Position numbers and translations under genes: made by a program | Assembly (NCBI GenBank): GCA_965248235.1 | Contig: CBDFIU010000002.1 | Coordinates: 913,396-977,395, forward strand | DNA length: 64,000 nt | Reading direction: 5' to 3' | DNA from: Bryobacterales bacterium | Lineage (GTDB): Bacteria > Acidobacteriota > Terriglobia > Bryobacterales > UBA6623 | Part shown: piece after piece, positions 4,209 to 54,708 of the stretch | How positions within the stretch are numbered: the stretch's first letter is position 1 | Layout of the letters: the number at the start of each line of letters is the position of its first letter | Notes under the pieces: generated by a model | Told to the model about the DNA's origin: nothing | The model's input: the letters and a program-made list of their open reading frames with translations, nothing else | Database searches by the model: none

Positions 4209-5975
4209 ATGCTTTTGGGTACCGTCGTGGTTTTGTTGGCCGCGGCCGCGCCAGCGTTTTCAGAACAGCGATGGGTCAAGATCACCTCGCCGAACTTTGA
4301 AATGTTCACCAGCGCCGGCGAAGGAGACGGACGTCGGACCATCCTGCACTTTGAGCAGATCCGAAGTTTTTTCCTTGAGACAGTCAAGTCCCGAAAGCCA
4401 ACGCCTCGGCCTGTTCGGATCATAGCGTTTCGCTCACGCAAGGAATACGAGCCCTACCGGCCGAACGAATTTGCGAGTGCGTACTACCAGTCCGGTCATG
4501 ATCGTGACTACATCGTAATGAGCAAGATCAGCTCTGATACGCGCCCGATCGCTGTTCATGAATACGTGCACCTCCTGGCGAGGCACGAGGGACTGACGAT
4601 GCCACCCTGGCTGAATGAAGGCTTTGCGGATTTGTATTCCACCCTCAAGCCCTGGGGCCGAAAGGTGGTCGTCGGCGAGGTGCTTCCCGGCCAACTTCAG
4701 CGCCTCCAGCAAAGAACGAAGTGGCTCCCTCTTGAGACGCTTACCTCCGCGGATAAAGATTCTCCACATTACAACGAGCGCGATCGAGCCGGCCTCTTCT
4801 ATGCGCAAAGCTGGGCGCTAACCCACATGCTGAATCTCTCAGAGGAATACCGGACGAGACTTACTGAATTCCTCAGTGCGATTGCTAAGGACACGTCAGC
4901 AGCGGTCGCATTCCAACAGGTGTATGACAAGTCACTCGAGCAGGTACAGAAGGACCTCCGGCTATACATGCGACAGGATCAGTTTGTCGCGGCCCTTTTC
5001 GACACCAAGCTTGAGAAAATCGCTGAAAAACCGGTCGTCGAGCCGGCCACGAAACTTGAATCGGGAATGGTCCTGGCCAACCTGTTGGCAATGACGAGGA
5101 AGCGGGACGACGCTCGTCGGATGTACGAAGAGCTGGCACGGGAACATCCTGATGCCTGGGAGGTTCCCGAAGCTCTTGGCTATCTCGCGATGCGCGGTGT
5201 CAGCCGGGATGAGGCCGGGAGCTATTTCGCACGCGCCGTGGAATTAGGGGCTACGAATCCGAAGCTCTATTTCGACTACTCCGGCTTACTGTCTCGGTCC
5301 GGCGCCGAGCACTCAGAGGCCGAATCTCTCCTGCGCAAAGCGGTCGAACTGAAGCCGGACTATCAAGAGGCGCGCTATTTTCTGGCATTCAACCTGTATA
5401 ACCAGCACAAATTCACCCACGCGCTGATCAACTTCGCCCAACTTAAAACAGTGACCGCCGAACGGGCCTTTACCTTTTATCGGGCGGTCGCATACGCCTA
5501 CCATCAAGTGGATCATAAGGACGACGCAAGAAAGACCGCCAAGCTGGCTGAGAAATACGCCCGAGGACCCTCGGAAATTGCCCAAGTCCAAGAACTCATC
5601 CGATGGATGGAGTGGGCCGAGGAGGCGGAAAAAGCACCGAAGACCGCGAATATTCGCGCGAGTCCATTGATCGCGGCAGACGACGACATCGAGGTTGTCC
5701 TGAGCGGACCTGAGACCAGTGCCGTCGCCGGCACATTTACGCAGCTGGATTGTCTGGGGAGCACCGCTCGATTGCACGTCGTTTCCGAGAACGAGGCGAT
5801 GGCGCTGGCCATTCTCGACCCGACGAACATAGTCGTCGAGGGTCCCAAGGCCGGTCCGGTCGATCTCAACTGTGGCCCGCAGCGGGGGAAGAGCATTGTG
5901 GTTCAGTACGAGGCCGGCGAGGATACGGAACTCGGCACGCGCGGGGTCGTCAAATCGATTGTGTTCAAGGAGTAG
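4209..5975 (+). CDS. Secreted HExxH zinc-metallopeptidase-like protein with C-terminal TPR repeats
   Basis: Signal/TM MLLGTVVVLLAAAAPAFS, HEYVH motif with a downstream NEGFAD, and TPR-like repeats. The start was chosen at an internal Met of track ORF 4098..5975. Confidence 0.7.
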   Translation: MLLGTVVVLLAAAAPAFSEQRWVKITSPNFEMFTSAGEGDGRRTILHFEQIRSFFLETVKSRKPTPRPVRIIAFRSRKEYEPYRPNEFASAYYQSGHDRDYIVMSKISSDTRPIAVHEYVHLLARHEGLTMPPWLNEGFADLYSTLKPWGRKVVVGEVLPGQLQRLQQRTKWLPLETLTSADKDSPHYNERDRAGLFYAQSWALTHMLNLSEEYRTRLTEFLSAIAKDTSAAVAFQQVYDKSLEQVQKDLRLYMRQDQFVAALFDTKLEKIAEKPVVEPATKLESGMVLANLLAMTRKRDDARRMYEELAREHPDAWEVPEALGYLAMRGVSRDEAGSYFARAVELGATNPKLYFDYSGLLSRSGAEHSEAESLLRKAVELKPDYQEARYFLAFNLYNQHKFTHALINFAQLKTVTAERAFTFYRAVAYAYHQVDHKDDARKTAKLAEKYARGPSEIAQVQELIRWMEWAEEAEKAPKTANIRASPLIAADDDIEVVLSGPETSAVAGTFTQLDCLGSTARLHVVSENEAMALAILDPTNIVVEGPKAGPVDLNCGPQRGKSIVVQYEAGEDTELGTRGVVKSIVFKE

Positions 5976-6139
5976 CTAAACGGAGCCGGTACAACCCGCT
6001 TTTCTTGGGACAAGCTATGCGAGTCCCGTCAAGTAAGACGCAACTCAGCCAAACGGGGAAGTAGTACGAAAACCGTTGTGTGGCGGCCCGTGGATCGGCT
6101 ACCCTGTTCGTGCCAGGACGGCCAAAAAGGAAATCCTGG

Positions 6140-7075
6140 TTAAAGGGGGGGACGGGCTTCGCTAAGCTCAGGCACGGAAAAAACTACGCGCGAGCTGGCG
6201 GTGAACTTGCGGAAGTTGCTGTAGGTACTTAAGAACTCGCCGTTGAATCCCTTGATCAAAGCTAGACGGGCTTTGAATCTCACTCGGAAGCTATCGACCA
6301 GCCAAACTTCGTCGTTGACGCGAGTTTTCTTAAATCGCAGCTTGGCGCCTTTATTGAGCTTGAACAGAAACAGCCCGAAGGAGACCTTCTCGATGGTTTC
6401 CGCTTCAAACTTGACCCAGGCGTAGTCGTCCTTGGCGATCCAAAAGATCCCACGCAGCTTGGATAGAATTCGAGCACGCCTGTTAGCGGGTTTGTAGCCC
6501 GGTTTCGGTTCGGCGTTGATCACGAAGGTTTCGATTCCATCAACGCAATCCTCCCCCACCAGCTGAAAATCGTAAGCCCGCTGGACCTCGGCGACAAACT
6601 CGCGCTCCTCAGTTTTCTTTTTCTCTTGCTTCGCGAGACGCTTCTTGCGCTGCCGGGGTGTCTCCTTCTGCATGCTCGCGAGGCTTTTTTCGAGTTTTTG
6701 CTGTTGCTTTTTCTCCTCCTGTGGCTCTAGCGCTCGGTCGTTGCGGGCGATGAGGCGTCGGTACACGGAGCCGTCGAGAAGAGTGAGATCGTGAGTCTTC
6801 GAGCGGCTGGATTTCAGATCCCCCTTCTTGTCGAAACTGCGCTGCTCCGACCGCTCGTGAAAGGTGTAATCGCGAGCTATCTTATCGTTCTGTTCGTCGG
6901 CAGCGAAGGCCCGACGGGTAATCTCGTTCGGGGGCAGCTCCGCGCTCTCGCCGGCGCAAGGGATGAGCCACAAGGCAAGCCAAAGGGTGTGGCAGCGCCG
7001 CTTCGGGTGGTCGCCGAGCCCCGGCCACACCCTTTCGGTAAGATGCGTTTTCCGAGACTTTTCGGCGAGTGCCAT
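6140..7075 (-). CDS. LolA-like outer-membrane lipoprotein-sorting family protein
   Basis: Track ORF. The central Lys/Glu-rich linker and C-terminal beta-rich domain (WIAKDDYAWVKFEAE, RVNDEVWL) match, from memory, the acidobacterial LolA_like family. Confidence 0.5.
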   Translation of the reverse strand: MALAEKSRKTHLTERVWPGLGDHPKRRCHTLWLALWLIPCAGESAELPPNEITRRAFAADEQNDKIARDYTFHERSEQRSFDKKGDLKSSRSKTHDLTLLDGSVYRRLIARNDRALEPQEEKKQQQKLEKSLASMQKETPRQRKKRLAKQEKKKTEEREFVAEVQRAYDFQLVGEDCVDGIETFVINAEPKPGYKPANRRARILSKLRGIFWIAKDDYAWVKFEAETIEKVSFGLFLFKLNKGAKLRFKKTRVNDEVWLVDSFRVRFKARLALIKGFNGEFLSTYSNFRKFTASSRVVFSVPELSEARPPL

Positions 7076-11352: not shown

Positions 11353-12276
11353 TTACTGACCTGCTTGGTGCCGCACCGTCACTCCCTTGGCCACAACTTT
11401 GCCGTCAACTAAATCTAGCCCGCCCTCCGGCATTGGGGGTCCGTCGAGATCGCGGAAAAATAAAGGAAGGCCTTCGGCGAGGTTGATGGGTGGGCGAGAG
11501 CGCGGCTCTTGCCGCTGATGATGGATGTGAATGTGCGGCTCACTGCTATGGCCCGAGTTGCCACAGCGGCCGATCTCTTGGCCCTCGGTGACCTCGTCGC
11601 CTTCCTTCACCAGGACACTCCCTTGTTTGAGATGGGCGAGAACGAGATAGGTTTGGGTGTCGGGAAGCTGTAGGGAAATATGGTTTCCGAAGGGCTGAAG
11701 GGCATTCATCTCTCCCGGTGTTTCGTCGCGCACACCGTCTTCAGCAGCGGCTACACGCGCGGAGACCGGCGCGACGACTGGCAGGTCCCAACAACCATAA
11801 TCTTCAAGGTTCTTACTGCCGATGAAGTAGGGCTCGACCATCATGTCGTAAGCCCATCGCTGATCGGGGACAAGGGTGTGTTGGTTGACGGCCATGGTGT
11901 CGCCTCCCCAGGCGACTTTCAGGGGAACGTCGGCCGGCAGCCGCACCGTCGCCGAGGGTTGGACGGAGTTCACATCCGCCGGATAGGCGATCGGCAGGAT
12001 GCCGAACTGCCAGCACAACGGCCAGATCGCGAGAAGTGAGACGACGGTGGTTGCGATAACAGGGCGGCTCAGCCGGCGCTTCCACAGGACGTAGACGAAA
12101 GTCACCAGCAGACTCACCAACCCAAGCAGCGGGACAAGCTGCAACAGCAACAGCCAGGCGACGACGCCGGCAAAGCCCCCGGCCAGCACGAATCCTAAAC
12201 ACGCAAGAAGCGAGGATCCCAGAATTGACAAGGGCGTCCAGCGCAAGATGCGTCGGAGGGAGACGGAAATATTCAC
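11353..12276 (-). CDS. Membrane-anchored M23 (LytM-type) metallopeptidase
   Basis: N-terminal TM helices and the motif GNSGHSSEPHIHIH. The GTG start at 12276 overlaps the stop of fragment F3 (GTGA). The track ORF start at 12330 reads across the fragment in another frame. Confidence 0.75.
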   Translation of the reverse strand: MNISVSLRRILRWTPLSILGSSLLACLGFVLAGGFAGVVAWLLLLQLVPLLGLVSLLVTFVYVLWKRRLSRPVIATTVVSLLAIWPLCWQFGILPIAYPADVNSVQPSATVRLPADVPLKVAWGGDTMAVNQHTLVPDQRWAYDMMVEPYFIGSKNLEDYGCWDLPVVAPVSARVAAAEDGVRDETPGEMNALQPFGNHISLQLPDTQTYLVLAHLKQGSVLVKEGDEVTEGQEIGRCGNSGHSSEPHIHIHHQRQEPRSRPPINLAEGLPLFFRDLDGPPMPEGGLDLVDGKVVAKGVTVRHQAGQ

Positions 12277-12368
12277 AGCGTCCTCCCCGCCCACCGCACC
12301 TGTCCGACGACCCGGCCGTCTTTCGGCCACGGCAGCGGCGTGAGCTTCGGGTTGTCGCTGGCAAGCCA
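12273..12368 (-). pseudogene. Orphan 3' fragment of an S24/CI repressor gene (copy F3, about 32 codons)
   Basis: Encodes WLASDNPKLTPLPWPKDGRVVGQVRWAGRTL-stop. It aligns with the equivalent part of 14559..14870. Confidence 0.85.
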
Positions 12369-15788: not shown

Positions 15789-16026
15789 TGTGCGTAAGGG
15801 CATCAACCGTCTCCGGGGTCGCCTCGCGGAGCTGGGTGTGACCCAGCAGGACCTCGCAGACCTTCTCGGGATCAACCCGACCCTGCTGAACCACATTCTC
15901 AAGGGCCGCCGCCCCCCTCCCCCCGACTTCTTCGAGAAGGTCAACGCAGCCCTCGACCGCCTGGAGCGGGCGGAGAAGGCGGCTCAGGAAGCGAAGGAAA
16001 AGGTGCTCAACGAGGGGGTGGCGTGA
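15778..16026 (+). CDS. Cro-like HTH regulator
   Basis: HTH GVTQQDLADLLGINPTLLNHILKG. GTG 15778 lies about 8 nt after the -10 (possibly leaderless). An alternative in-frame GTG is at 15790. Confidence 0.75.
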   Translation: MTLTVRKGINRLRGRLAELGVTQQDLADLLGINPTLLNHILKGRRPPPPDFFEKVNAALDRLERAEKAAQEAKEKVLNEGVA

Positions 16027-16074
16027 TGGATGAGCAGCGAGTCCGCAAGATCGTCCGCGAGGAATTGGCGAAGC

Positions 16075-47176: not shown

Positions 47177-47505
47177 GGTGTCGTCCGTCAGAACACCTTG
47201 CCCAGAAGCAGCCGTAGCGCATCGCTGGTCTGCTCCGCCGTCAACGCCCCCGTGGTGTCAACAAGCGCCCTCGCCGCCACGTCATCAGGATCCGTCACCT
47301 CCGTCAGACGAGAAGCGGCGGTGAACGTACCCGCGCGCCGATCGTAGACCCATCCGCTCCCGGGTCGCCTGGGTGATCGGTGTAACCTTTGTCACCGAAC
47401 CCGTCCGGCCGAACCCCTTGAGTAGCGACACGGTACGCTGAAAAGCGTGCGCCGGGTAGGGCTCGGCAACGAGGAGATCGCACAAGAATTTTCGGAGGAC
47501 ACAGT

Positions 47506-48589: not shown

Positions 48590-49243
48590 ATGAGCGAAAA
48601 CGAAGTTTTTTACATCTTTGCTCTTCGGATGCTGGAGCGACTCGCCGCGGTGATCATCGGTGGAGTATCGATATACCTCGGTTATCGCCTTTTTCAGACG
48701 GTCAAAGCGACCGGAGAGGGTTCCGGTTCGGTGAAACTTCCCGGGGATGTCACCGTAATGGTGAGCCGCGTCGCTCCCGGGGTGTTCTTCGCGTTGTTCG
48801 GCGCGGTTGTTGTCGTGATGTCCTACGCCTTCCCGTTTTACTACGAAGAGCCCGGGCGCGGGGGAGGCCGAAGGATCTCCGGCGTCGGGTCGGAGCCCGA
48901 GTTGGCGTCAGCCGTGTCGAATCCTTCGTCGCCGCCGGATGCGTCGGCGGCTCGGACGGCGGAAGATCTTCTTGCCGACCGCAACCGGGTGCGGAGGCAC
49001 GTCAAATTTCTAAACGAAATGCACGACCGAGTTGCCGGCGGACTGTCGGACGTGCAACGGAAAAGGGCCAAGCAGGAGACGGTCGCGGCGAAATTGCACT
49101 TGATGCGGGGTGTTTGGGGGGACGACTGGGCGGAGTTTGAAAAGTTCCAACCGTGGGCCGAAGACTATGGGTCACCGGACGACTCCCAGGTGTTCCGCGA
49201 CACGGCCGAGTTCTTCACCTTCGGCGCCGAGGAGGATCCATGA
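48590..49243 (+). CDS. Hypothetical membrane protein
   Basis: Two TM segments. ATGA-coupled to the next gene. Confidence 0.55.
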   Translation: MSENEVFYIFALRMLERLAAVIIGGVSIYLGYRLFQTVKATGEGSGSVKLPGDVTVMVSRVAPGVFFALFGAVVVVMSYAFPFYYEEPGRGGGRRISGVGSEPELASAVSNPSSPPDASAARTAEDLLADRNRVRRHVKFLNEMHDRVAGGLSDVQRKRAKQETVAAKLHLMRGVWGDDWAEFEKFQPWAEDYGSPDDSQVFRDTAEFFTFGAEEDP

Positions 49244-50238
49244 TGAGAAAGCTTGCGCTCCTACCCTTGCTCATCCTTCCGGGGTTGCTGATCGCCGCCG
49301 GGGTGCAAGACATGTACTCTCAGGCGGAGTTGAGCGGGGATCAGCAGCGCTACCGCGACCGGATGGACTACCTCTACCAGCAAGGTCTGCGGCCGTTTTT
49401 GAAAGGGGCGGAAAAACCATCTCTGGAGGGAGTGCGGATTGAGATACCGCTCAGGGGCCGGAGTCCCGTGGAGGCCTATGCCGACGGCGGGAGTCGGACC
49501 GTGGTGCTGCCCGCTTCGACCCTGAAATTCATCGAGGATCTCAGCGCTGCGTACGCCTGGCGTTATACAGAGCGCCACAGCCTGGAACCAATTGACGAAT
49601 ATCTCGCGATGCTGAAGCACCGCAAGCCGGAAGATTTTCCCAACGGGAGGGTTCCAGCGCCACAGGCGGCGTTGGGCTTTCCCTCGAAGATTTGGGAGCG
49701 AGGGAAAGAAGTGAGTGATCTCTACCTTGGATTTCGCAATACCGCGTGGGCCTTTATCCTGGCGCACGAGTTGGGGCATCTGCGCTTCCGCCATCCGGGA
49801 AACACCGAGGTTCCGGCGGCCGAGTCGCAGCACAATGAGTTCCAAGCCGACACTTTCGCGGTCGATCTGCTGGGCCGCTCGGACACGATGCCGATGGGCG
49901 CCATTCTGTGGTTTCAGGCGAGCGCGGGCTACTTCAAGAATCGGGCGGACTTTTCCACCGACGCCGGGTACCGAGAATGGGCCCGCGGAGAGGCGACGCA
50001 TCCGGTGAACGCCGACCGGCTCGTTCGCTTCGGCGTCGCGCTGAACAAGGCCGCCGCCGAGACGCTCAATCTTGGCCACGCGAGCAAACTTCGGTTTATA
50101 GCCATGCAAGTCACACAAATGGCGGATATCCTGGCCGAGCCGGACATGCAGCGGCTGATCGCCAGATGCGCGGTCCTCGGCGACCCGAGCGACCTGAAGC
50201 GCGTGGAGGACCGGCCTTGTGACGAGCGCTTACAATAG
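49240..50238 (+). CDS. Secreted HExxH metallopeptidase-like protein
   Basis: RBS GGAGGA, signal peptide MMRKLALLPLLILPGLLIAAG, and the motif FILAHELGHLRFRH. Confidence 0.65.
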   Translation: MMRKLALLPLLILPGLLIAAGVQDMYSQAELSGDQQRYRDRMDYLYQQGLRPFLKGAEKPSLEGVRIEIPLRGRSPVEAYADGGSRTVVLPASTLKFIEDLSAAYAWRYTERHSLEPIDEYLAMLKHRKPEDFPNGRVPAPQAALGFPSKIWERGKEVSDLYLGFRNTAWAFILAHELGHLRFRHPGNTEVPAAESQHNEFQADTFAVDLLGRSDTMPMGAILWFQASAGYFKNRADFSTDAGYREWARGEATHPVNADRLVRFGVALNKAAAETLNLGHASKLRFIAMQVTQMADILAEPDMQRLIARCAVLGDPSDLKRVEDRPCDERLQ

Positions 50239-50327: not shown

Positions 50328-50380
50328 GAACCCCGGTGCCGAACCCCGGTGCCTGTCACCGAACCGAGAACCCCGGTGCC
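50328..50380. repeat. Three copies of GAACCCCGGTGCC at the left flank of the IS110-family element
   Basis: Copies at 50328-50340, 50341-50353 and 50368-50380. Confidence 0.8.
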
Positions 50381-50488
50381 TGTTTTAATGCATAGGTGAG
50401 CCGGCGAAGAGGTCCTCCTGAGAGGGATAAAAAGCTAAGCGCAGCCGCCCAAGGCGGCGCCTTAGAACCCGAACTCAGGAGGACTGAA

Positions 50489-51490
50489 ATGCACTATATC
50501 GGACTCGACGTCCACAAGCAAAGCGTCAGCTACTGCACCAAGACCGCCGCCGGGGAGTTGGTCGAGGAAGGTCGCATCGACGCCACCCGCGAAGCGCTCG
50601 CAAGTTGGGCCCAAACGCAACCGCCCTGGCGCGGGGCGATGGAAGCCACCTTGTTCAGCGGCTGGATCCACGACACGCTCGCGCCCTACGCCGACGACCT
50701 CGCCGTCGGACACCCCGCCGCCATGGAAGCCATCACGCGGGCCAAAAAGAAAAGCGATCGCCTCGATTCCGACAAGCTCGCCGACCTATGCCGCGTCAAC
50801 CTGCTGCCGCGCGTGTGGATGCCGCCGCGCGAGCTGCGCGAATTGCGCCGCCTGCTGCGCTTTCGCCGACGCCTGGTCGAACAAGCGACCTGGTCGAAGA
50901 ACCGCATCGCGACCTTGATGATGGAAATCGGCGAGCCCTACGCCAAGTCCAAACTGCACGGCAAACGCTACTTCTACCGCTTTCTCGATGATCTGAAGGC
51001 AAGCGAAACCGACCTTCTCCTGTTGGCCGCGAGCCGCGACCGTCTGGAGGATTCCGCCGAGCTCGCCCGGCTTGTCGAGAAACGCCTGCTCGAGCATCCG
51101 CTGTTGTGCGAGCGTGTGGCGAGGTTGCAAACGATCCCGGGCGTCGGGGCGATCACGGCGCTCACGTGGGCGGTCGAGATCGGCGACCCGCGGCGCTTTC
51201 GCTCGCTCGATCGCGCGGTGAGCTACTGCGGGCTCTGCGCGCGGCTCAACGAATCGGCGGGCAAGAGCAAACGCGGCCCGCTGTCGAAGCAACGCAACCC
51301 GCATCTGCAACACGTGCTGATCGAAGCCGCCAAGCTTGCGCCGCGCTGGAACGAGCCGTTGGCCGGGTTGTATCAAAGCGAACTCGAGCGCGGACATCGC
51401 AATCGCGCGACGATTCGCGTGGCCCGCAAGCTGGTGGCGATGCTGCTCGCCATCGACCGCCGCCAAAGCGGCTACGAAGCGCGAGACTAG
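50489..51490 (+). CDS. IS110-family DEDD transposase/recombinase
   Basis: RBS AGGAGG. The protein starts MHYIGLDVHKQS (DEDD N-terminal domain) and carries the C-terminal Transposase_20-like LQTIPGVGAITALTWAVEIGDPRRF. Confidence 0.85.
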   Translation: MHYIGLDVHKQSVSYCTKTAAGELVEEGRIDATREALASWAQTQPPWRGAMEATLFSGWIHDTLAPYADDLAVGHPAAMEAITRAKKKSDRLDSDKLADLCRVNLLPRVWMPPRELRELRRLLRFRRRLVEQATWSKNRIATLMMEIGEPYAKSKLHGKRYFYRFLDDLKASETDLLLLAASRDRLEDSAELARLVEKRLLEHPLLCERVARLQTIPGVGAITALTWAVEIGDPRRFRSLDRAVSYCGLCARLNESAGKSKRGPLSKQRNPHLQHVLIEAAKLAPRWNEPLAGLYQSELERGHRNRATIRVARKLVAMLLAIDRRQSGYEARD

Positions 51491-51813
51491 CGACGTAGCG
51501 ATGCGCTGAACGACTTTCCGCCGGGCCTCGGCGTTCGGTGACTCCGTAACGGCTCCGCCGCGGCGGCGCCCGAGACGGCATGGTGACTGTTTCGAGGCCG
51601 GCGGAATCGACTTTGTTGGACCCGAACTGAATCTTCCGCGACGGCGCGCCTTGGCGTGCCCGAGGCGGCTCATGGATGTCTGGTCGCGCCCGAGGCGGGC
51701 GGTGATCGAAGTGAATGCGATTCGGTGACGGGAGTTCGTAGGCGTGGCAAGACGCCACCAATCACGCGGACTCTGATCCGCCAACGCCGGACCTGCGTCG
51801 GGTGACGAGGGCC

Positions 51814-51940
51814 GTCCATCGCCCTCGAAAATCTTCCAATAAGCGGCTGAGCGGAACCCGTCAAGGGTTCGCTTCGCCGCTGCGCGCCCTTGACTGAACC
51901 CGCTCAGCCGCCCAACCCCCCTAATACGAGGGCGATGGAC
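51814..51940 (+). ncRNA. Candidate bridge/seek-RNA-like three-tier hairpin downstream of the IS110-family recombinase
   Basis: Perfect stems of 14, 10 and 8 bp are separated by symmetric internal loops of 15/15 and 7/7 nt (GGAACCC/TGAACCC). Strand and ends are not established. Confidence 0.4.
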
Positions 51941-52152
51941 TCCGAGCGTCGCTCACCCGACCCGAATCGAGAGCGACGATTGCTTCGCCCTTTCTCCATC
52001 ACCCATCCCTCACCAACAGCGGGCTGACTGCGTCCACCCCTTGCGGACACTTGACAGATACCTGTCATGGATGTCACCGAACCGATGTCACCGAGTGCCT
52101 CGCCATTTTGGGACGCGCACCAGCCACTTGCTTCTATGCTACTTTTAGATCG

Positions 52153-54708
52153 GTGATTCAACGATTAAGATGTTGCCTTGCGGCCCCCCTGGCCGTTTTC
52201 TCGGTCCTCGTCGCACTCCCGCTCCTCGGCCAACAATCTTCCGGCGAATCGTTTTCTCCCGAAGCTGTTCGTTTCTTTGAAAGCGATGTTCGGCCGGTTC
52301 TGCTCAACAATTGCGCGAGCTGCCACAACGCCGAGTTGCGTACCAGCGGTCTGTCTGTGGAAAGCCGAGAGGGCATTCTCAAAGGCGGCAACCGCGGTGC
52401 GGCCGTCTCGCCCGGCCTGCCGCGAGAAAGCCGGCTGATTCGGGCCGTCCGCCGGCAGGACGTGTTGAAGATGCCCCCCGCCGCCAAGTTGGCTCCCCGC
52501 GAGATCGCCGCGCTCGCTCGCTGGATCGAAATGGGCCTGCCCTGGCCCACACAGAGCGGGGTGGCCGCCGATCGAAGCCAAGCCGCCGGCCACTGGTCGT
52601 TCCAACCCATCGAACGCCCGGCCAAGCCCCCAGTCTCGGACGCATCTTGGGCGCGCAACCCGATCGACCGCTTTATCCTGGCCCGCCTCGACGAAGAGGG
52701 TGTGAAACCTTCGCCTTCCGCCGAGAAAGTAACTCTCGTCCGCCGCGCCTACATCGACTTGATCGGCCTGCTCCCCAACGCCGACGAAGTCGACGAATTT
52801 CTTGAAGATACGAGTCCGGACGCCTATGAAAAAGTCGTCGACCGCCTGCTCGAATCGCCGCACTACGGCGAACGCTGGGGCCGCCACTGGCTTGACGTCG
52901 CGCGTTACGCCGACTCCAACGGCGACGCCGCCGACGGCGAGCGCAAGATCTGGATGTACCGCGAATGGGTCATTCGCGCCCTCAACCGCGACTTGCCCTT
53001 CGATCAGTTTGTCATCGAGCAAATCGCCGGCGACATGCTCCCCGACGCCGCCGAAGACCAGATCGTCGCGACGGGTTTTCACCGCAACACTTTGTTGAAT
53101 CTCGAAGGCGGCGTCGACTTCGAGCAGTACCGAATCGAAGCCGTCGTGGACCGCGTCGCCACCACAGGCATGACCTTTCTCGGTCTGACGCTGGGTTGCG
53201 CCCGCTGCCACGATCACAAGTTCGACCCGGTGTCGCAGCGGGAGTTCTACAGCTTCTTCGCCTTCTTCGACAGCATCGATGAGCTGAGCGGCGACTTCGA
53301 TGACAAAGAAGGACGCAAGCGCCCCTATGAACCGGTGCTCGAGTTCGGAACGTCCGAGCAGCACGCCCGCCGAAAGGCGCTTCGGGCGCAAATTGCAGTG
53401 ATGCAAGATGAGCTGGACTCATACGAGGAAGGGCTTCTCGCCGAGCAAGCCGCGTGGGAGGCGTCCGTGACCGAGGAGCAGCTCGCCGAGCTTACCCCGG
53501 GAGTTCGCGCCATCCTCAAGCTCCCCGTCGGCGAGCGCCACGAGGAGCAAAACAAGACGTTAAAGCGCGCCTACTTTGCACAGGATCTCGCGCATCAGGA
53601 GCGCAAGAAGGCGATCGCCGCGGTGCGCGAGATCGAACCCGACATCCCCAGTACGCTCGTCATGCGGGAGTTGCCCGAACCCCGCGCGACCCATGTGATG
53701 CTGGGCGGCGAGTTTCTCCAAAAGGGGGTTCGCGTCCGGCCCGGCACCCCCGCGGTGCTGCCCGCGCTGCAAAAGCAAGAGCGATCCACGCGCTTGGATC
53801 TGGCCCGCTGGCTGGTCGGCAAAGACAACCCGCTGACAGCCCGAGTTACCGTCAACCGCATATGGCAACGCTACTTTGGACGCGGCATCGTGGAGACGGA
53901 GAACGATTTCGGCACCCAGGGCTCGCCTCCTTCACATCCCCTGCTGCTCGACTGGCTGGCCTCCGAGTTGATGGCGCGCCACTGGAGCCTCAAGGCGATT
54001 CATCGGACGATCGTGAATTCGGCAACCTATCGGCAGTCATCGCGGTATCGGCCCGCCTCCGCGGCGAAAGACCCGCGCAACCTTCTGCTGGCGCGTCAAA
54101 ACCGGCTCCGCGTCGAGTCGGAGATCGTCCGCGACTTGGCGCTTTCGGCGAGCGGCATGCTGTCCCCGGTCATCGGCGGCCCGAGTGTTTACCCGGCGCA
54201 GCCCCCCGGCGTGATGATCGGCAACCCCTGGCCCGAAAGCGAAGGAGCCGATCGTTACCGCCGCGGCATCTACACCCATTTTTGGCGCAAGAGCCCGCAC
54301 CCCGGCCTGATCGTCTTCGACAGCCCCGATGCCCTGACGACCGCGACCAGCCGCGAGCGGTCCAATACACCACTGCAGGCTCTCACGCTGCTCAACGACA
54401 CCGGCTTCCACGAGTTTGCGCAGGGTCTGGCGAAGCGGGTTCTCAGCGAGCGCCCCGAAGCATCAGACTCCCAGCGAATCGAGCACGCTTTTCGGCTTTG
54501 CCTCACCCGTCCGCCACAACAGGTCGAGAAAGATCGGCTTGAGCGCCTGCTGGTCACGCAACTCGATGACTTCCGAACAAATCCGAGCGAGGCCTTTGAG
54601 ATGCTTACCCTGCCCAACGAGAAGGGAACCGACTTGCCCGAGACAGCCGCCTGGACAATGGTCGCCGCCGTTGTCCTCAATCTCGATGAATTCATCACCC
54701 GGGAGTGA
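52153..54708 (+). CDS. PSCyt2 / DUF1549 / DUF1553 (PSD1) family protein
   Basis: Signal peptide, CASCH heme motif, NPIDRFILARLDEEGV and the C-terminal DUF1553 pattern. A GTG 52153 start was chosen. Confidence 0.8.
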   Translation: MIQRLRCCLAAPLAVFSVLVALPLLGQQSSGESFSPEAVRFFESDVRPVLLNNCASCHNAELRTSGLSVESREGILKGGNRGAAVSPGLPRESRLIRAVRRQDVLKMPPAAKLAPREIAALARWIEMGLPWPTQSGVAADRSQAAGHWSFQPIERPAKPPVSDASWARNPIDRFILARLDEEGVKPSPSAEKVTLVRRAYIDLIGLLPNADEVDEFLEDTSPDAYEKVVDRLLESPHYGERWGRHWLDVARYADSNGDAADGERKIWMYREWVIRALNRDLPFDQFVIEQIAGDMLPDAAEDQIVATGFHRNTLLNLEGGVDFEQYRIEAVVDRVATTGMTFLGLTLGCARCHDHKFDPVSQREFYSFFAFFDSIDELSGDFDDKEGRKRPYEPVLEFGTSEQHARRKALRAQIAVMQDELDSYEEGLLAEQAAWEASVTEEQLAELTPGVRAILKLPVGERHEEQNKTLKRAYFAQDLAHQERKKAIAAVREIEPDIPSTLVMRELPEPRATHVMLGGEFLQKGVRVRPGTPAVLPALQKQERSTRLDLARWLVGKDNPLTARVTVNRIWQRYFGRGIVETENDFGTQGSPPSHPLLLDWLASELMARHWSLKAIHRTIVNSATYRQSSRYRPASAAKDPRNLLLARQNRLRVESEIVRDLALSASGMLSPVIGGPSVYPAQPPGVMIGNPWPESEGADRYRRGIYTHFWRKSPHPGLIVFDSPDALTTATSRERSNTPLQALTLLNDTGFHEFAQGLAKRVLSERPEASDSQRIEHAFRLCLTRPPQQVEKDRLERLLVTQLDDFRTNPSEAFEMLTLPNEKGTDLPETAAWTMVAAVVLNLDEFITRE

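What the first reader, a model, noticed from the sequence alone, without database searches (positions are those of the whole stretch)
50328..52085. IS110-family element with a long 3' non-coding region containing a three-tier hairpin with symmetric internal loops: candidate bridge/seek RNA
Downstream of the DEDD recombinase gene is about 580 bp with no credible ORF. Positions 51814-51940 fold into perfect stems of 14 bp (GTCCATCGCCCTCG/CGAGGGCGATGGAC), 10 bp (GCGGCTGAGC/GCTCAGCCGC) and 8 bp (GTCAAGGG/CCCTTGAC). The stems are separated by internal loops of 15/15 nt and 7/7 nt. The two 7-nt loop strands are GGAACCC and TGAACCC. The element's left flank carries three copies of GAACCCCGGTGCC (50328-50380). 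A 14-bp direct repeat TGTCACCGAACCGA sits at 50354-50367 and 52072-52085. Published work on IS110/IS1111 elements (2024) shows that they encode a non-coding bridge RNA. Its internal loops base-pair with target and donor DNA, and in the IS1111 group it lies 3' of the recombinase. The structure and the loop/flank sequence sharing fit that model, but here the exact IS ends and RNA ends are unknown.
Basis: partly seen in the sequence, partly recalled or inferred. Interest (0 to 1): 0.65.

Follow-up and report, generated by a model that had tools for sequence, protein, structure and literature searches.

The report
IS1111-type element; hairpin is not guide
This is an ordinary RNA-guided insertion sequence of the IS110/IS1111 family whose real guide ("bridge") RNA lies about 200 bases upstream of the flagged hairpin. 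The hairpin is a separate, optional palindromic add-on, and its tip resembles an unannotated hairpin found on many bacterial plasmids.

Summary
The described sequence features are all real. The element is a complete 1,693-bp IS110-family insertion sequence of the IS1111 type, at window 50382-52074, with a GT core at both junctions. It has a 333-aa DEDD transposase, subterminal inverted repeats and a 584-nt 3' non-coding region.

The bridge/seek RNA is not the flagged hairpin. It is a conserved pair of stem-loops at 51516-51702. The internal-loop strands of these stem-loops match the left flank, right flank, right end and left end of the element. They co-vary with those sequences in more than 20 independent relatives, and permutation tests gave 0 of 10,000 for both target guides.

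The GAACCCCGGTGCC copies and the 14-bp "direct repeat" are target DNA. An intact second copy of the target lies at 50341-50367.

The three-tier hairpin (51814-51940) is inside the IS and is supported by covariation. Its loops do not track targets or ends. Most relatives lack it, and in others it sits between the transposase gene and the bridge RNA, always in the same orientation.

Its roughly 40-nt tip is 90-95% identical to an unannotated hairpin on diverse proteobacterial plasmids. Its function is unresolved. The leading ideas are a single-strand-origin-like DNA signal or an RNA boundary element.

The parts
50328..50381 (+). Left flank, which is target DNA and not part of the IS. It is a short array of 13-14-nt units. 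It includes an intact, unoccupied copy of the target, GAACCCCGGTGCCT-GT-CACCGAACCGA, at 50341-50367. The last 7-8 nt (CGGTGCCT) form the left target half (LT).
   Evidence: Relatives share sequence only from 50382 onward. Joining the two flanks of the IS recreates exactly the sequence at 50341-50367.
50382..52074 (+). The complete IS1111-type IS110-family element. It is 1,693 bp counting the GT core at both junctions. The left terminus is GT|TTTAATGCATAGG and the right terminus is CTTGACAGATACCTGTCATGGAT|GT.
   Evidence: The termini are conserved in more than 40 related elements. Multi-copy genomes define the ends. L022 is a 96%-identical full copy at another site.
50388..50397 (+). Left subterminal inverted repeat, ATGCATAGGT. 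Its partner is at 52060-52068.
   Evidence: Read directly from the sequence. The same pair is present, and changes together, in relatives: ATAGGT changes to ATAAGT at both ends in the L015 group.
50412..50484 (+). 5'-UTR hairpin GTCCTCCTGAG/CTCAGGAGGAC. Its 3' arm contains the ribosome-binding site of the transposase gene, so it probably dampens translation from read-through transcripts.
   Evidence: Perfect 11-bp inverted repeat (I15). The arm is conserved in the L003 family. The function is inferred.
50489..51490 (+). DEDD transposase (bridge recombinase), 333 aa.
   Evidence: Pfam PF01548 and PF02371. NCBIfam NF033542 scored 185.8 bits against a cut-off of 140. There are weak sequence matches to the solved IS621 and ISCro4 transposases.
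51516..51606 (+). Bridge/seek RNA stem-loop 1, the target-binding loop. The 5' loop strand GTTCGGTGAC (51533-51542) is the reverse complement of core plus right target. The 3' loop strand is GGTGACT (51582-51588), then GT (51589-51590), then TTC. That corresponds to left target, core and the first bases of the IS left end.
   Evidence: Conserved outer stem with compensatory changes. Both guides co-vary with their own flanks, and 0 of 10,000 permutations reached the observed match for either guide.
51618..51685 (+). Bridge RNA stem-loop 2, the donor-binding loop. In the 5' strand, UGAAUC (51628-51633) pairs with the IS left end GTTTTA. In the 3' strand, TCATGGATGT (51670-51679) is identical to the IS right end plus core.
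   Evidence: An 11-nt exact repeat links 51670-51680 and 52065-52075 (D15). The sequence is conserved in all relatives. The left-end guide co-varies with left-end positions 5-6, with 95 of 10,000 permutations reaching the observed match.
51686..51702 (+). Small hairpin closing the conserved RNA region.
   Evidence: Consensus fold with compensatory changes.
51814..51940 (+). Accessory three-tier palindromic module, the feature that was flagged. Its tip at 51857-51896 (GTCAAGGG, a 19-nt loop, then CCCTTGAC) is shared with plasmid hairpins.
   Evidence: z = -7.4. 94% of cells are paired, and the covariation score is 0.219 against 0.076 in shuffles. The covariance model hits only inside IS copies, always on the + strand. 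Plasmid homologues were found.
52051..52056 (+). Outward-facing -35 box TTGACA. On a circularised element it would sit 18 nt from TTTAAT (50384-50389), preceded by TG, forming a junction promoter.
   Evidence: Read directly from the sequence. CTTGAC is conserved in all relatives. Junction promoters are reported for this family (PMC11187229). The function here is inferred.
52060..52068 (+). Right subterminal inverted repeat, ACCTGTCAT.
   Evidence: Read directly from the sequence and conserved in relatives.
52075..52099 (+). Right flank, which is target DNA. CACCGAACCGA is the right target half (RT), followed by a further unit, TGTCACCGAGTGCC.
   Evidence: Similarity to L022 and the other relatives stops at 52074. 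This stretch pairs with the guide at 51533-51542.

Best explanation
Window 50382-52074 is one intact copy of an IS1111-type member of the IS110 family.

**How the element works.** Its DEDD recombinase is guided by a roughly 185-nt non-coding RNA encoded at 51516-51702, immediately 3' of the gene. That RNA has two stem-loops, each with an internal loop.
[quoted passage not shown] - In the second loop, one strand is identical to the element's right end (TCATGGAT-GT). The other strand pairs with its left end (GT-TTTA).
- The RNA therefore bridges the joined ends of an excised circle to a target of the form ...GTGNCT|GT|CACCGA..., and recombination occurs at the shared GT.
- The element inserted into one unit of a small repeat array, which is why a 14-bp 'direct repeat' and GAACCCCGGTGCC copies surround it.

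**What the flagged hairpin is.** The three-tier hairpin at 51814-51940 is not part of this guide system. It is an optional, structurally conserved palindromic module carried in a fixed orientation by some lineages of the clade.

**What is shown and what is inferred.**
- Shown: the ends, the core, the guide-flank covariation, and the structure and distribution of the hairpin.
- Inferred: expression of the RNA, the junction promoter, and any function of the hairpin.
- My leading guess for the hairpin is a strand-specific DNA hairpin acting like a plasmid single-strand origin on a single-stranded circular intermediate.
For: **Family assignment.** The transposase matches the IS110 domains.

**Ends.**
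- Multi-copy relatives and an independent 96%-identical copy define the ends.
- GT is present at both junctions in all elements with readable flanks.
- Joining the window's two flanks recreates the sequence at 50341-50367.

**Guide RNA.**
- The non-coding region conserved down to about 53% protein identity is 51491-51724, not the hairpin.
- The consensus fold gives 36 pairs, 19 of them with compensatory changes.
- The guides change with the flanks. Examples are WIN GTCACCGAAC, L020 GTCCCCGAA, L013 GTCGCTACC, L019 GTCCCTACA, L030 GTCCCCGGAA and L039 GTCCCTAGTT. On the left side, examples are CTGCCT, TGACT, GTGTTT, GGAAGT and TAAGGT.
- Permutation tests gave 0 of 10,000 for both target guides and 95 of 10,000 for the left-end guide.
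- The top-strand-pairing segment lies 5' of the bottom-strand-pairing segment, as reported for IS1111-type seekRNAs (PMC11187229).
- The guide definitions follow PMC11208160.

**Hairpin.**
- Its loops are conserved while the targets differ.
- Its loops have no consistent complementarity to ends or flanks.
- It is absent from most relatives, where 134-161 nt separate the internal and terminal ATGGATGT, against 395 nt here.
Against: - No RNA data exist for this element, so the transcript's ends and its binding to the transposase are unverified.
- The left-target guide has one mismatch to the window's left flank (GGTGACT against GGTGCCT).
- The left-end guide has a U:T mismatch at the core and a G:T wobble.
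- No consensus promoter was found for the integrated copy.
- The C-terminal motif is GLCARLNESAG rather than the published GL-P----S(t)G pattern of IS1111 transposases.
Confidence: 0.88

Rival explanations
1. The three-tier hairpin is the bridge/seek RNA, and its 15/15 and 7/7 internal loops are the target and donor guides.
For: - The hairpin has symmetric internal loops flanked by perfect stems.
- GAACCC occurs both in the 7-nt loops and in the left flank.
- The hairpin is inside the IS.
Against: - The 7-nt loops stay GGRACC / NGAACCC in lineages whose flanks are unrelated.
- The 15-nt loops contain neither the GT nor the AC core, and they give only scattered 7-9-mer matches at non-homologous places.
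- Most active relatives lack the hairpin, and L001/L023 carry only a decayed half.
- A complete set of four guides already exists at 51516-51702.
Confidence: 0.02
2. The hairpin works as single-stranded DNA. It would be a strand-specific initiation signal, functionally like the single-strand origins (sso) of rolling-circle plasmids or the ssi signals of conjugative plasmids. It would help convert a single-stranded circular transposition intermediate into double-stranded DNA, or allow its early transcription.
For: - **Shape and genetics match an sso.** It is a 127-200-nt imperfect palindrome in non-coding DNA. Its orientation is fixed: covariance-model scores are 124-151 bits on the + strand against 31-61 bits on the - strand, and all 13 lineages are +. 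Its position is flexible, either before or after the bridge RNA. It is dispensable. These are the properties listed for sso elements (PMC5703833).
- **Base-pairing pattern.** Almost all pairs are Watson-Crick. G:U is no more frequent than C:A or pyrimidine mismatches.
- **Plasmid homologues.** The tip is 90-95% identical to hairpins in plasmid non-coding regions, with stem covariation GGG/CCC, TAG/CTA and CCG/CGG. Hosts include tiny 1.2-1.3-kb plasmids; in one of them, pSYM4, it sits next to iterons and oriT. Two hits in a Shewanella plasmid and one in a Vibrio plasmid lie upstream of co-oriented genes in conjugative-type plasmids (one Shewanella hit is weak, 19.5 bits).
- **A single-stranded intermediate is plausible.** Two preprints report that IS110-family elements excise by copy-out. 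One of them shows a single-stranded circle that the host must convert to double-stranded DNA.
Against: - The plasmid hairpin itself has no known function, so the analogy rests on context.
- The five published Frpo/ssi sequences do not contain the core motif.
- No convincing -35/-10 pair at proper spacing is conserved across the plasmid copies (read).
- Nothing shows that this IS clade uses a single-stranded intermediate.
Confidence: 0.3
3. The hairpin works as RNA, co-transcribed with the transposase and bridge RNA. It would be a boundary element, for example an RNase III processing site, a 3' stabiliser or a terminator. It would separate or protect the bridge RNA and insulate the outward-facing -35 box.
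For: - It always has the same orientation as the transposase and the bridge RNA.
- It always lies directly next to the bridge RNA, on one side or the other.
- It is a very stable fold with compensatory changes.
- In IS1111 elements the short seekRNA is thought to be processed from a longer transcript (PMC11187229).
Against: - There is no U-tract after the stem, and no terminator was called.
- There is no excess of G:U pairs.
- The homologous plasmid hairpin is found in both orientations relative to neighbouring genes: opposite in pSYM4 and in the Burkholderia plasmid.
- No Rfam family matches.
Confidence: 0.3
4. The hairpin is a selfish or neutral palindromic insertion, MITE-like or grown by template switching. 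It would merely be tolerated in the non-coding region, with its arms kept complementary by intramolecular repair.
For: - L040 and L052 differ by a clean 128-bp presence/absence, flanked by a 12-bp direct repeat CGA(A/C)GCCGGCTT.
- The hairpin sits at two different positions in different lineages.
- The outer arms are lineage-specific, and only the inner part is shared.
Against: - No copy was found outside IS non-coding regions in about 376 kb of window plus flanks.
- Orientation never varies.
- Unpaired loop sequences are conserved across lineages whose transposases are only 54-70% identical.
- The indel is equally well explained by deletion between repeats at the base of the stem.
Confidence: 0.2

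Closest known systems
IS1111-group elements of the IS110 family with a 3' seekRNA/bridge RNA (ISEc11, ISPa11, ISKpn4; Siddiquee et al. 2024, PMC11187229; Durrant et al. 2024, PMC11208160)
   Same: - The DEDD transposase has a typical size, 333 aa against the reported 330-350 aa.
- The long non-coding region lies downstream of the gene.
- There are subterminal inverted repeats.
- An outward -35 box sits at the right end.
- The RNA carries a top-strand-pairing segment 5' of a bottom-strand-pairing segment, and the two overlap at the insertion point.
- The first stem-loop is 91 nt, against 82-96 nt for the reported seekRNAs.
   Different: - The transposase is only distantly related to the characterised ones. 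The best annotated plasmid hit is 50% identical, and matches to solved structures have E about 1e-7.
- The core is GT.
- The C-terminal motif deviates from the published pattern.
- This lineage carries an extra 127-nt palindrome between the RNA and the right end.
IS621 bridge RNA (IS110 group)
   Same: - There are two internal loops, one for the target and one for the donor.
- Each loop has a left guide pairing with the bottom strand and a right guide pairing with the top strand, and both include the core.
- The 3' loop strands run on into the partner molecule: LT+GT+TTC and LD+GT+C. This resembles the handshake guides of IS621.
   Different: - The RNA is encoded 3' of the gene rather than 5'.
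- The order of the guides within each loop is reversed.
- The core is GT, not CT.
- The subterminal repeats are long.
ISPpu9 with its downstream ssr9 module (PMC12288879)
   Same: - It is an IS110-family element carrying an optional extra module downstream of the transposase gene.
- That module is present in some copies and not required for transposition.
   Different: - ssr9 is a small-RNA gene that also exists free in the genome and forms its own circles.
- Here the module is a palindrome found only inside IS copies in the data held.
Single-strand origins (ssoA/U/T/W) of rolling-circle plasmids and ssi/Frpo signals of conjugative plasmids
   Same: - It is a long imperfect palindrome in non-coding DNA.
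- It is orientation-specific, its position is flexible, and it is dispensable.
- The hairpin tip is shared with plasmids.
   Different: - There is no sequence similarity to published Frpo sequences.
- No priming or promoter activity has been shown.
- The host is a transposon, not a plasmid.

Membership tests
IS110 family (DEDD, RNA-guided transposases) | N-terminal DEDD/RuvC-like domain and C-terminal Transposase_20 domain | tested here: met
   PF01548 (E 1.3e-15) and PF02371 (E 3.5e-21). NF033542 scored 185.8 bits against a cut-off of 140.
IS110 family (DEDD, RNA-guided transposases) | Site-specific insertion with a short core shared by donor and target, and no longer target duplication | tested here: met
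   GT is at both junctions in all elements with readable flanks. The apparent 14-bp repeat is explained by a tandemly repeated target.
IS110 family (DEDD, RNA-guided transposases) | Non-coding RNA with two internal loops whose strands pair with target and donor | tested here: met
   Consensus structure. All four guides were identified. Permutation tests support the guide-flank correspondence.
IS110 family (DEDD, RNA-guided transposases) | The RNA is expressed, binds the transposase and is required for transposition | not testable with these tools
   This needs RNA-seq, pull-down and transposition assays.
IS1111 group | The longer non-coding region and the guide RNA lie downstream of the transposase gene | tested here: met
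   There are 106 nt upstream of the gene and 584 nt downstream. The RNA is at 51516-51702.
IS1111 group | Subterminal inverted repeats of 7-17 bp | tested here: met
   ATGCATAGGT (50388-50397) pairs with ACCTGTCAT (52060-52068): 8 of 9 matches plus a one-base bulge, each repeat 6 nt in from the end. In L003 the match is 10 of 10 plus the bulge. The L015 group changes at both ends together.
IS1111 group | The top-strand-pairing segment lies 5' of the bottom-strand-pairing segment in the RNA | tested here: met
   51533-51542 pairs with the top strand and 51582-51590 with the bottom strand. The published order is described in PMC11187229.
IS1111 group | C-terminal GL-P----S(t)G motif in the transposase | tested here: inconclusive
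   The protein has GLCARLNESAG, with Ala in place of Pro and SAG in place of SG (translation). The published pattern is in PMC11187229.
IS1111 group | Phylogenetic placement among ISfinder IS1111 transposases | not tested
   No ISfinder sequences were available. The solved IS621 and ISCro4 transposases are equally distant.
Bridge-RNA guide loops located in the flagged hairpin | Loop strands complementary to, and co-varying with, target and donor | tested here: not met
   The loops are conserved or vary without relation to the flanks. There is no consistent complementarity.
Single-strand origin / ssi-type DNA signal (for the hairpin) | Long imperfect palindrome in non-coding DNA that is orientation-specific, flexible in position and dispensable | tested here: met
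   The properties are as listed in PMC5703833.
Single-strand origin / ssi-type DNA signal (for the hairpin) | Sequence relatedness to a characterised sso, ssi or Frpo element | tested here: not met
   The core motif is absent from the published Frpo/ssi set. There is no Rfam match. The related plasmid hairpins are themselves unannotated.
Single-strand origin / ssi-type DNA signal (for the hairpin) | Primes complementary-strand synthesis or transcription on single-stranded DNA | not testable with these tools
   This needs single-strand conversion or in vitro priming assays.

The most novel reading that the evidence does not exclude
The three-tier hairpin would be a plasmid-type single-strand initiation signal recruited by a lineage of IS110-family elements. 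On a single-stranded circular transposition intermediate it would fold and recruit RNA polymerase or primase. It would start complementary-strand synthesis or early transcription, as sso/ssi elements do for plasmids. Its roughly 40-nt tip would then define a widespread, so far undescribed class of such signals on proteobacterial plasmids.
Probability: 0.25. Interest if true: 0.7.

Novelty: new member of a known kind. Interest (0 to 1): 0.38.

Why it matters
The main result is a clean natural example of how IS1111-type bridge RNAs are built. More than 20 related elements have different targets and matching guide changes, which could serve as a ready-made covariation set for this poorly characterised branch.

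The hairpin is the less ordinary part. It is a structurally maintained, orientation-fixed, optional palindrome whose tip is shared with many plasmids. If it proves to be a single-strand DNA signal, it would give independent genomic support for the recently proposed single-stranded circle intermediate of IS110 transposition. It would also name a function for an unannotated plasmid hairpin.

Tried and rejected
- **Rfam.** A search of the region at E up to 10 gave only a chance microRNA match on the palindrome. Three plasmid loci that carry the core gave nothing for it.
- **Exact-protein look-up.** The transposase is not on record.
- **Other copies in the window.** None were found.
- **Guide role of the hairpin loops.** Rejected.
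- **Hairpin as host or REP sequence outside the IS.** Rejected, because L022, L003/L004 and L006 carry it inside conserved termini.
- **Frpo identity.**
  - The roughly 4,500 IncI/IncF plasmid hits are a single 22/23-nt match at E 0.8, which is not significant on its own.
  - The published Frpo sequences lack the motif.
- **Sigma-70-type promoter in the hairpin stem.**
  - On the minus strand of the IS copies, TTGACG is followed 17 nt later by TA.
  - The rest of that -10 region is poor, and the plasmid copies lack it.
  - I therefore do not claim a promoter.
- **oriT identity of the core.** Unlikely, because pSYM4 has a separate ColE1-type bom site.
- **Literature search for the core sequence.** No paper was found.
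- **Viral-contig scan for the core.** It gave one hit, which from its sequence context looks like an unrelated chance match.
- **L040/L052 indel.** It could be either an insertion or a deletion, so it does not prove that the module is mobile.
Full report
**Observation.**
- The transposase ORF (50489-51490) is followed by about 584 nt without a credible ORF.
- Positions 51814-51940 fold into perfect 14-, 10- and 8-bp stems separated by 15/15- and 7/7-nt internal loops. The fold has -82.2 kcal/mol and z = -7.4, and no shuffle folded as well.
- Three exact GAACCCCGGTGCC copies lie at 50328-50380, against 0.17 expected by chance.
- TGTCACCGAACCGA occurs at 50354 and 52072.
- The protein carries DEDD_Tnp_IS110 and Transposase_20. 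It passes the NCBIfam model 'IS110 family RNA-guided transposase'.

**Ends of the element.**
- One genome scan and one metagenome scan with the transposase gave 86 related loci.
- Genomes with several copies (L003-6, L013/14/17, L015/16, L008/19) and a motif scan show that the whole clade shares two termini. The left terminus is GT|TTNAATGNATAGG and the right terminus is CTTGAC...AYCTATCATGGAT|GT.
- In the window these termini are at 50382 and 52074, giving 1,693 bp counting the GT at both junctions.
- L022 is a 96%-identical full copy at a different site with the same termini.
- L007 (97%) is a relic cut at both ends.
- Subterminal inverted repeats lie 6 nt inside each end: ATGCATAGGT at 50388-50397 and ACCTGTCAT at 52060-52068. 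They change together in relatives.
- The right end carries an outward TTGACA at 52051-52056. On a circle it would face TG-T-TTTAAT from the left end across an 18-nt spacer. This is the junction promoter known for this family (PMC11187229). It is inferred here.

**Target.** Joining the two flanks across one GT gives GAACCCCGGTGCCT-GT-CACCGAACCGA. That is exactly the uninterrupted sequence at 50341-50367. The element therefore sits in one unit of a small repeat array. The '14-bp direct repeat' and the three GAACCCCGGTGCC copies are target DNA, not parts of the IS.

**The real guide RNA.**
- DNA similarity to relatives with 68-83% identical transposases stops at about 51688-51724. The conserved part of the non-coding region is therefore 51491-51724, upstream of the hairpin.
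- An alignment of 14 lineages and a consensus fold of 9 show two stem-loops with internal loops. Of 36 predicted pairs, 19 have compensatory changes.
- Stem-loop 1 (51516-51606) is the target-binding loop.
  - Its 5' loop strand, GTTCGGTGAC, is the reverse complement of GT plus the right flank.
  - Its 3' loop strand, GGTGACT-GT-TTC, is the left flank (one mismatch), then GT, then the first bases of the IS.
- Stem-loop 2 (51618-51685) is the donor-binding loop.
  - Its 3' loop strand contains TCATGGATGTC, an exact copy of the right end (D15).
  - UGAAUC in its 5' loop strand pairs with the left end GTTTTA.
- Across relatives these strands change with the flanks.
  - Right target examples: GTCCCCGAA (L020), GTCGCTACC (L013), GTCCCTACA (L019), GTCCCCGGAA (L030), GTCCCTAGTT (L039), GTCCCCTTC (L024).
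  - Left target examples: CTGCCT, TGACT, GTGTTT, GGAAGT, TAAGGT.
- Permutation tests support this. With one representative per guide class, pairing guides with other elements' flanks never reached the observed match in 10,000 trials for either target guide. The left-end guide follows positions 5-6 of the left end, with 95 of 10,000 trials reaching the observed match.
- The layout fits the published definitions of left and right guides (PMC11208160).
- The segment order fits the one reported for IS1111-type seekRNAs, and the 91-nt first stem-loop fits their 82-96-nt size (PMC11187229).

**The flagged hairpin.**
- It lies inside the IS. It is present in the window, L022 and L007; in L002, L020, L025 and L026; and in L003-6 and L024.
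- These copies differ by compensatory changes. The middle stem varies as GCGGCTGAGC/GCTCAGCCGC, GCGGTTGGGC/GCCCAACCGC and GCGCTGGAGC/GCTCCAGCGC. The inner stem varies as GTCAAGGG/CCCTTGAC, GTCAACCG/CGGTTGAC and GTCCACCG/CGGTGGAC.
- On ten sequences, 94.4% of cells pair. The covariation score is 0.219 against 0.076 in shuffles, and sliding the partners by one to three columns abolishes the signal.
- Its loops are not guides.
  - The 7-nt loops stay GGRACC / NGAACCC whatever the target.
  - The 15-nt loops give only scattered short matches.
- Most relatives lack the module. L001/L023 keep only a decayed 5' half and still occur at two different sites.
- In the L013, L046 and L052 groups a homologous hairpin sits between the stop codon and stem-loop 1 instead.
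- A covariance model built from the hairpin hit only IS non-coding regions in 376 kb. Every hit was on the transposase strand, with far lower scores on the other strand.
- L040 and L052 are near-identical except for a clean 128-bp presence/absence of the hairpin, bounded by a 12-bp repeat.
- Pairs are almost all Watson-Crick. G:U is no commoner than other mismatches.

**An unexpected relative of the hairpin tip.**
- The inner 40 nt (51857-51896) match non-coding DNA of many plasmids at 87-95% identity.
- The hits include:
  - a 3.5-kb ColE1-like Citrobacter plasmid (E 6e-9);
  - Rhodopseudomonas pRPA;
  - 5.4-kb Klebsiella and Citrobacter plasmids;
  - 1.2-1.3-kb plasmids of E. coli, Salmonella, Klebsiella and Moellerella;
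  - Shewanella, Vibrio and Burkholderia plasmids.
- The loop (GTTCGCTNCGCCGC...CGCGC) is conserved while the stem co-varies, for example GTCAATAG/CTATTGAC in K. variicola.
- Context varies.
  - In the 1,304-bp plasmid pSYM4 two such hairpins sit beside iterons, and the plasmid has a separate ColE1-type bom site.
  - In conjugative-type plasmids, two hits in Shewanella (one weak, 19.5 bits) and one in Vibrio lie in large gaps 20-80 nt upstream of co-oriented genes.
- None is annotated, and Rfam has no family for it.
- The roughly 4,500 IncI/IncF hits are one 22/23-nt match of chance-level E-value. Published Frpo sequences lack the motif. I do not call it Frpo.

**What the hairpin does.** This is unresolved, and I rank two readings about equally.
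1. **A single-stranded-DNA signal.** Its size, fixed orientation, movable position and dispensability are the hallmarks listed for plasmid single-strand origins (PMC5703833). Its relatives are on plasmids. Two preprints report that IS110-family elements excise by copy-out, and one of them shows a single-stranded circle that the host must convert to double-stranded DNA.
2. **An RNA boundary element** next to the bridge RNA, acting in processing, stability or insulation. This is consistent with its orientation and its adjacency to the bridge RNA. It is weakened by the lack of a U-tract, the lack of G:U enrichment, and the mixed orientation of the plasmid copies relative to genes.

A passenger palindrome remains possible.

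**Verdict.** The family and the existence of a 3' guide RNA are right. The location of the RNA is wrong, and the claimed loop-flank relation is coincidental. The element is a new, uncharacterised member of a known kind. The accessory hairpin with a plasmid-type tip is the only feature that might lead somewhere new.

Noticed in passing
L005 and L006, about 4364-6217 (L006 coordinates): A second insertion sequence sits exactly in the apical loop of the homologous hairpin. It encodes a 458-aa DDE_5 transposase, has terminal repeats CCTGGAGTTTGG, and is flanked by an unusually long direct repeat (about 18 bp) of the apex sequence. In L006 the 3.46-kb composite keeps both IS110-type termini (L005's right end lies outside the fetched DNA). 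L005 and L006 lie at two different genomic sites, so the composite seems to have moved as one unit.
   Followed up: partly
L008 4212-4489: The last 134 nt of the element are tandemly duplicated. The duplication lies between the internal copy of the right-end sequence (the DNA encoding the donor guide) and the true right end. It looks as if the internal copy had been used as an alternative end.
   Followed up: no
window 50341-50367 and 47389-47400: An unoccupied second copy of the full target lies 14 nt left of the IS. A third site with a perfect right half (TGTCACCGAACC) but a poor left half lies 3 kb upstream. Both are potential further insertion or half-match sites.
   Followed up: partly
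window 50412-50484: A perfect 11-bp hairpin in the 5' UTR sequesters the ribosome-binding site of the transposase gene. It is conserved in the L003 family and looks like a guard against translation from read-through transcripts.
   Followed up: no
L093 (E. coli plasmid pSYM4, 1,304 bp) 55-180 and 958-1070: This tiny plasmid carries two GTCAAGG...CCTTGAC hairpins, each next to one arm of a 35-nt inverted repeat (GGTGGTTGCGCTCACTGCGTGATCACAACCACC). It also has iterons, a 164-aa helix-turn-helix protein and a ColE1-type bom site. The hairpins are unannotated.
   Followed up: partly
L094 (Shewanella baltica pSB01-1), locus 12177-12315 and 16003-16040: Two hits of the multi-tier hairpin (the first a weak model match, 19.5 bits, E 0.068) lie in large intergenic gaps just upstream of co-oriented genes. 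The genes are a ParB N-terminal domain protein and a hypothetical protein. The array also contains HicAB and an ArdC-like zincin, so the gene content resembles a plasmid leading region, although the array's orientation relative to the F-type tra operon is not the canonical one.
   Followed up: partly
L009 1845-1877: Two copies of a related IS lie head to tail, only 31 bp apart, on a 1,970-bp contig. This could be a tandem insertion or an assembly of a circular form.
   Followed up: no
window 52171-54708 and 49237-50238: The IS sits between two genes. One has a weak Peptidase_M48 match. The other encodes a PSCyt1/PSCyt2/PSD1 (DUF1549/DUF1553) protein. The outward-facing -35 box of the IS points at the second gene, about 100 nt away.
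   Followed up: no
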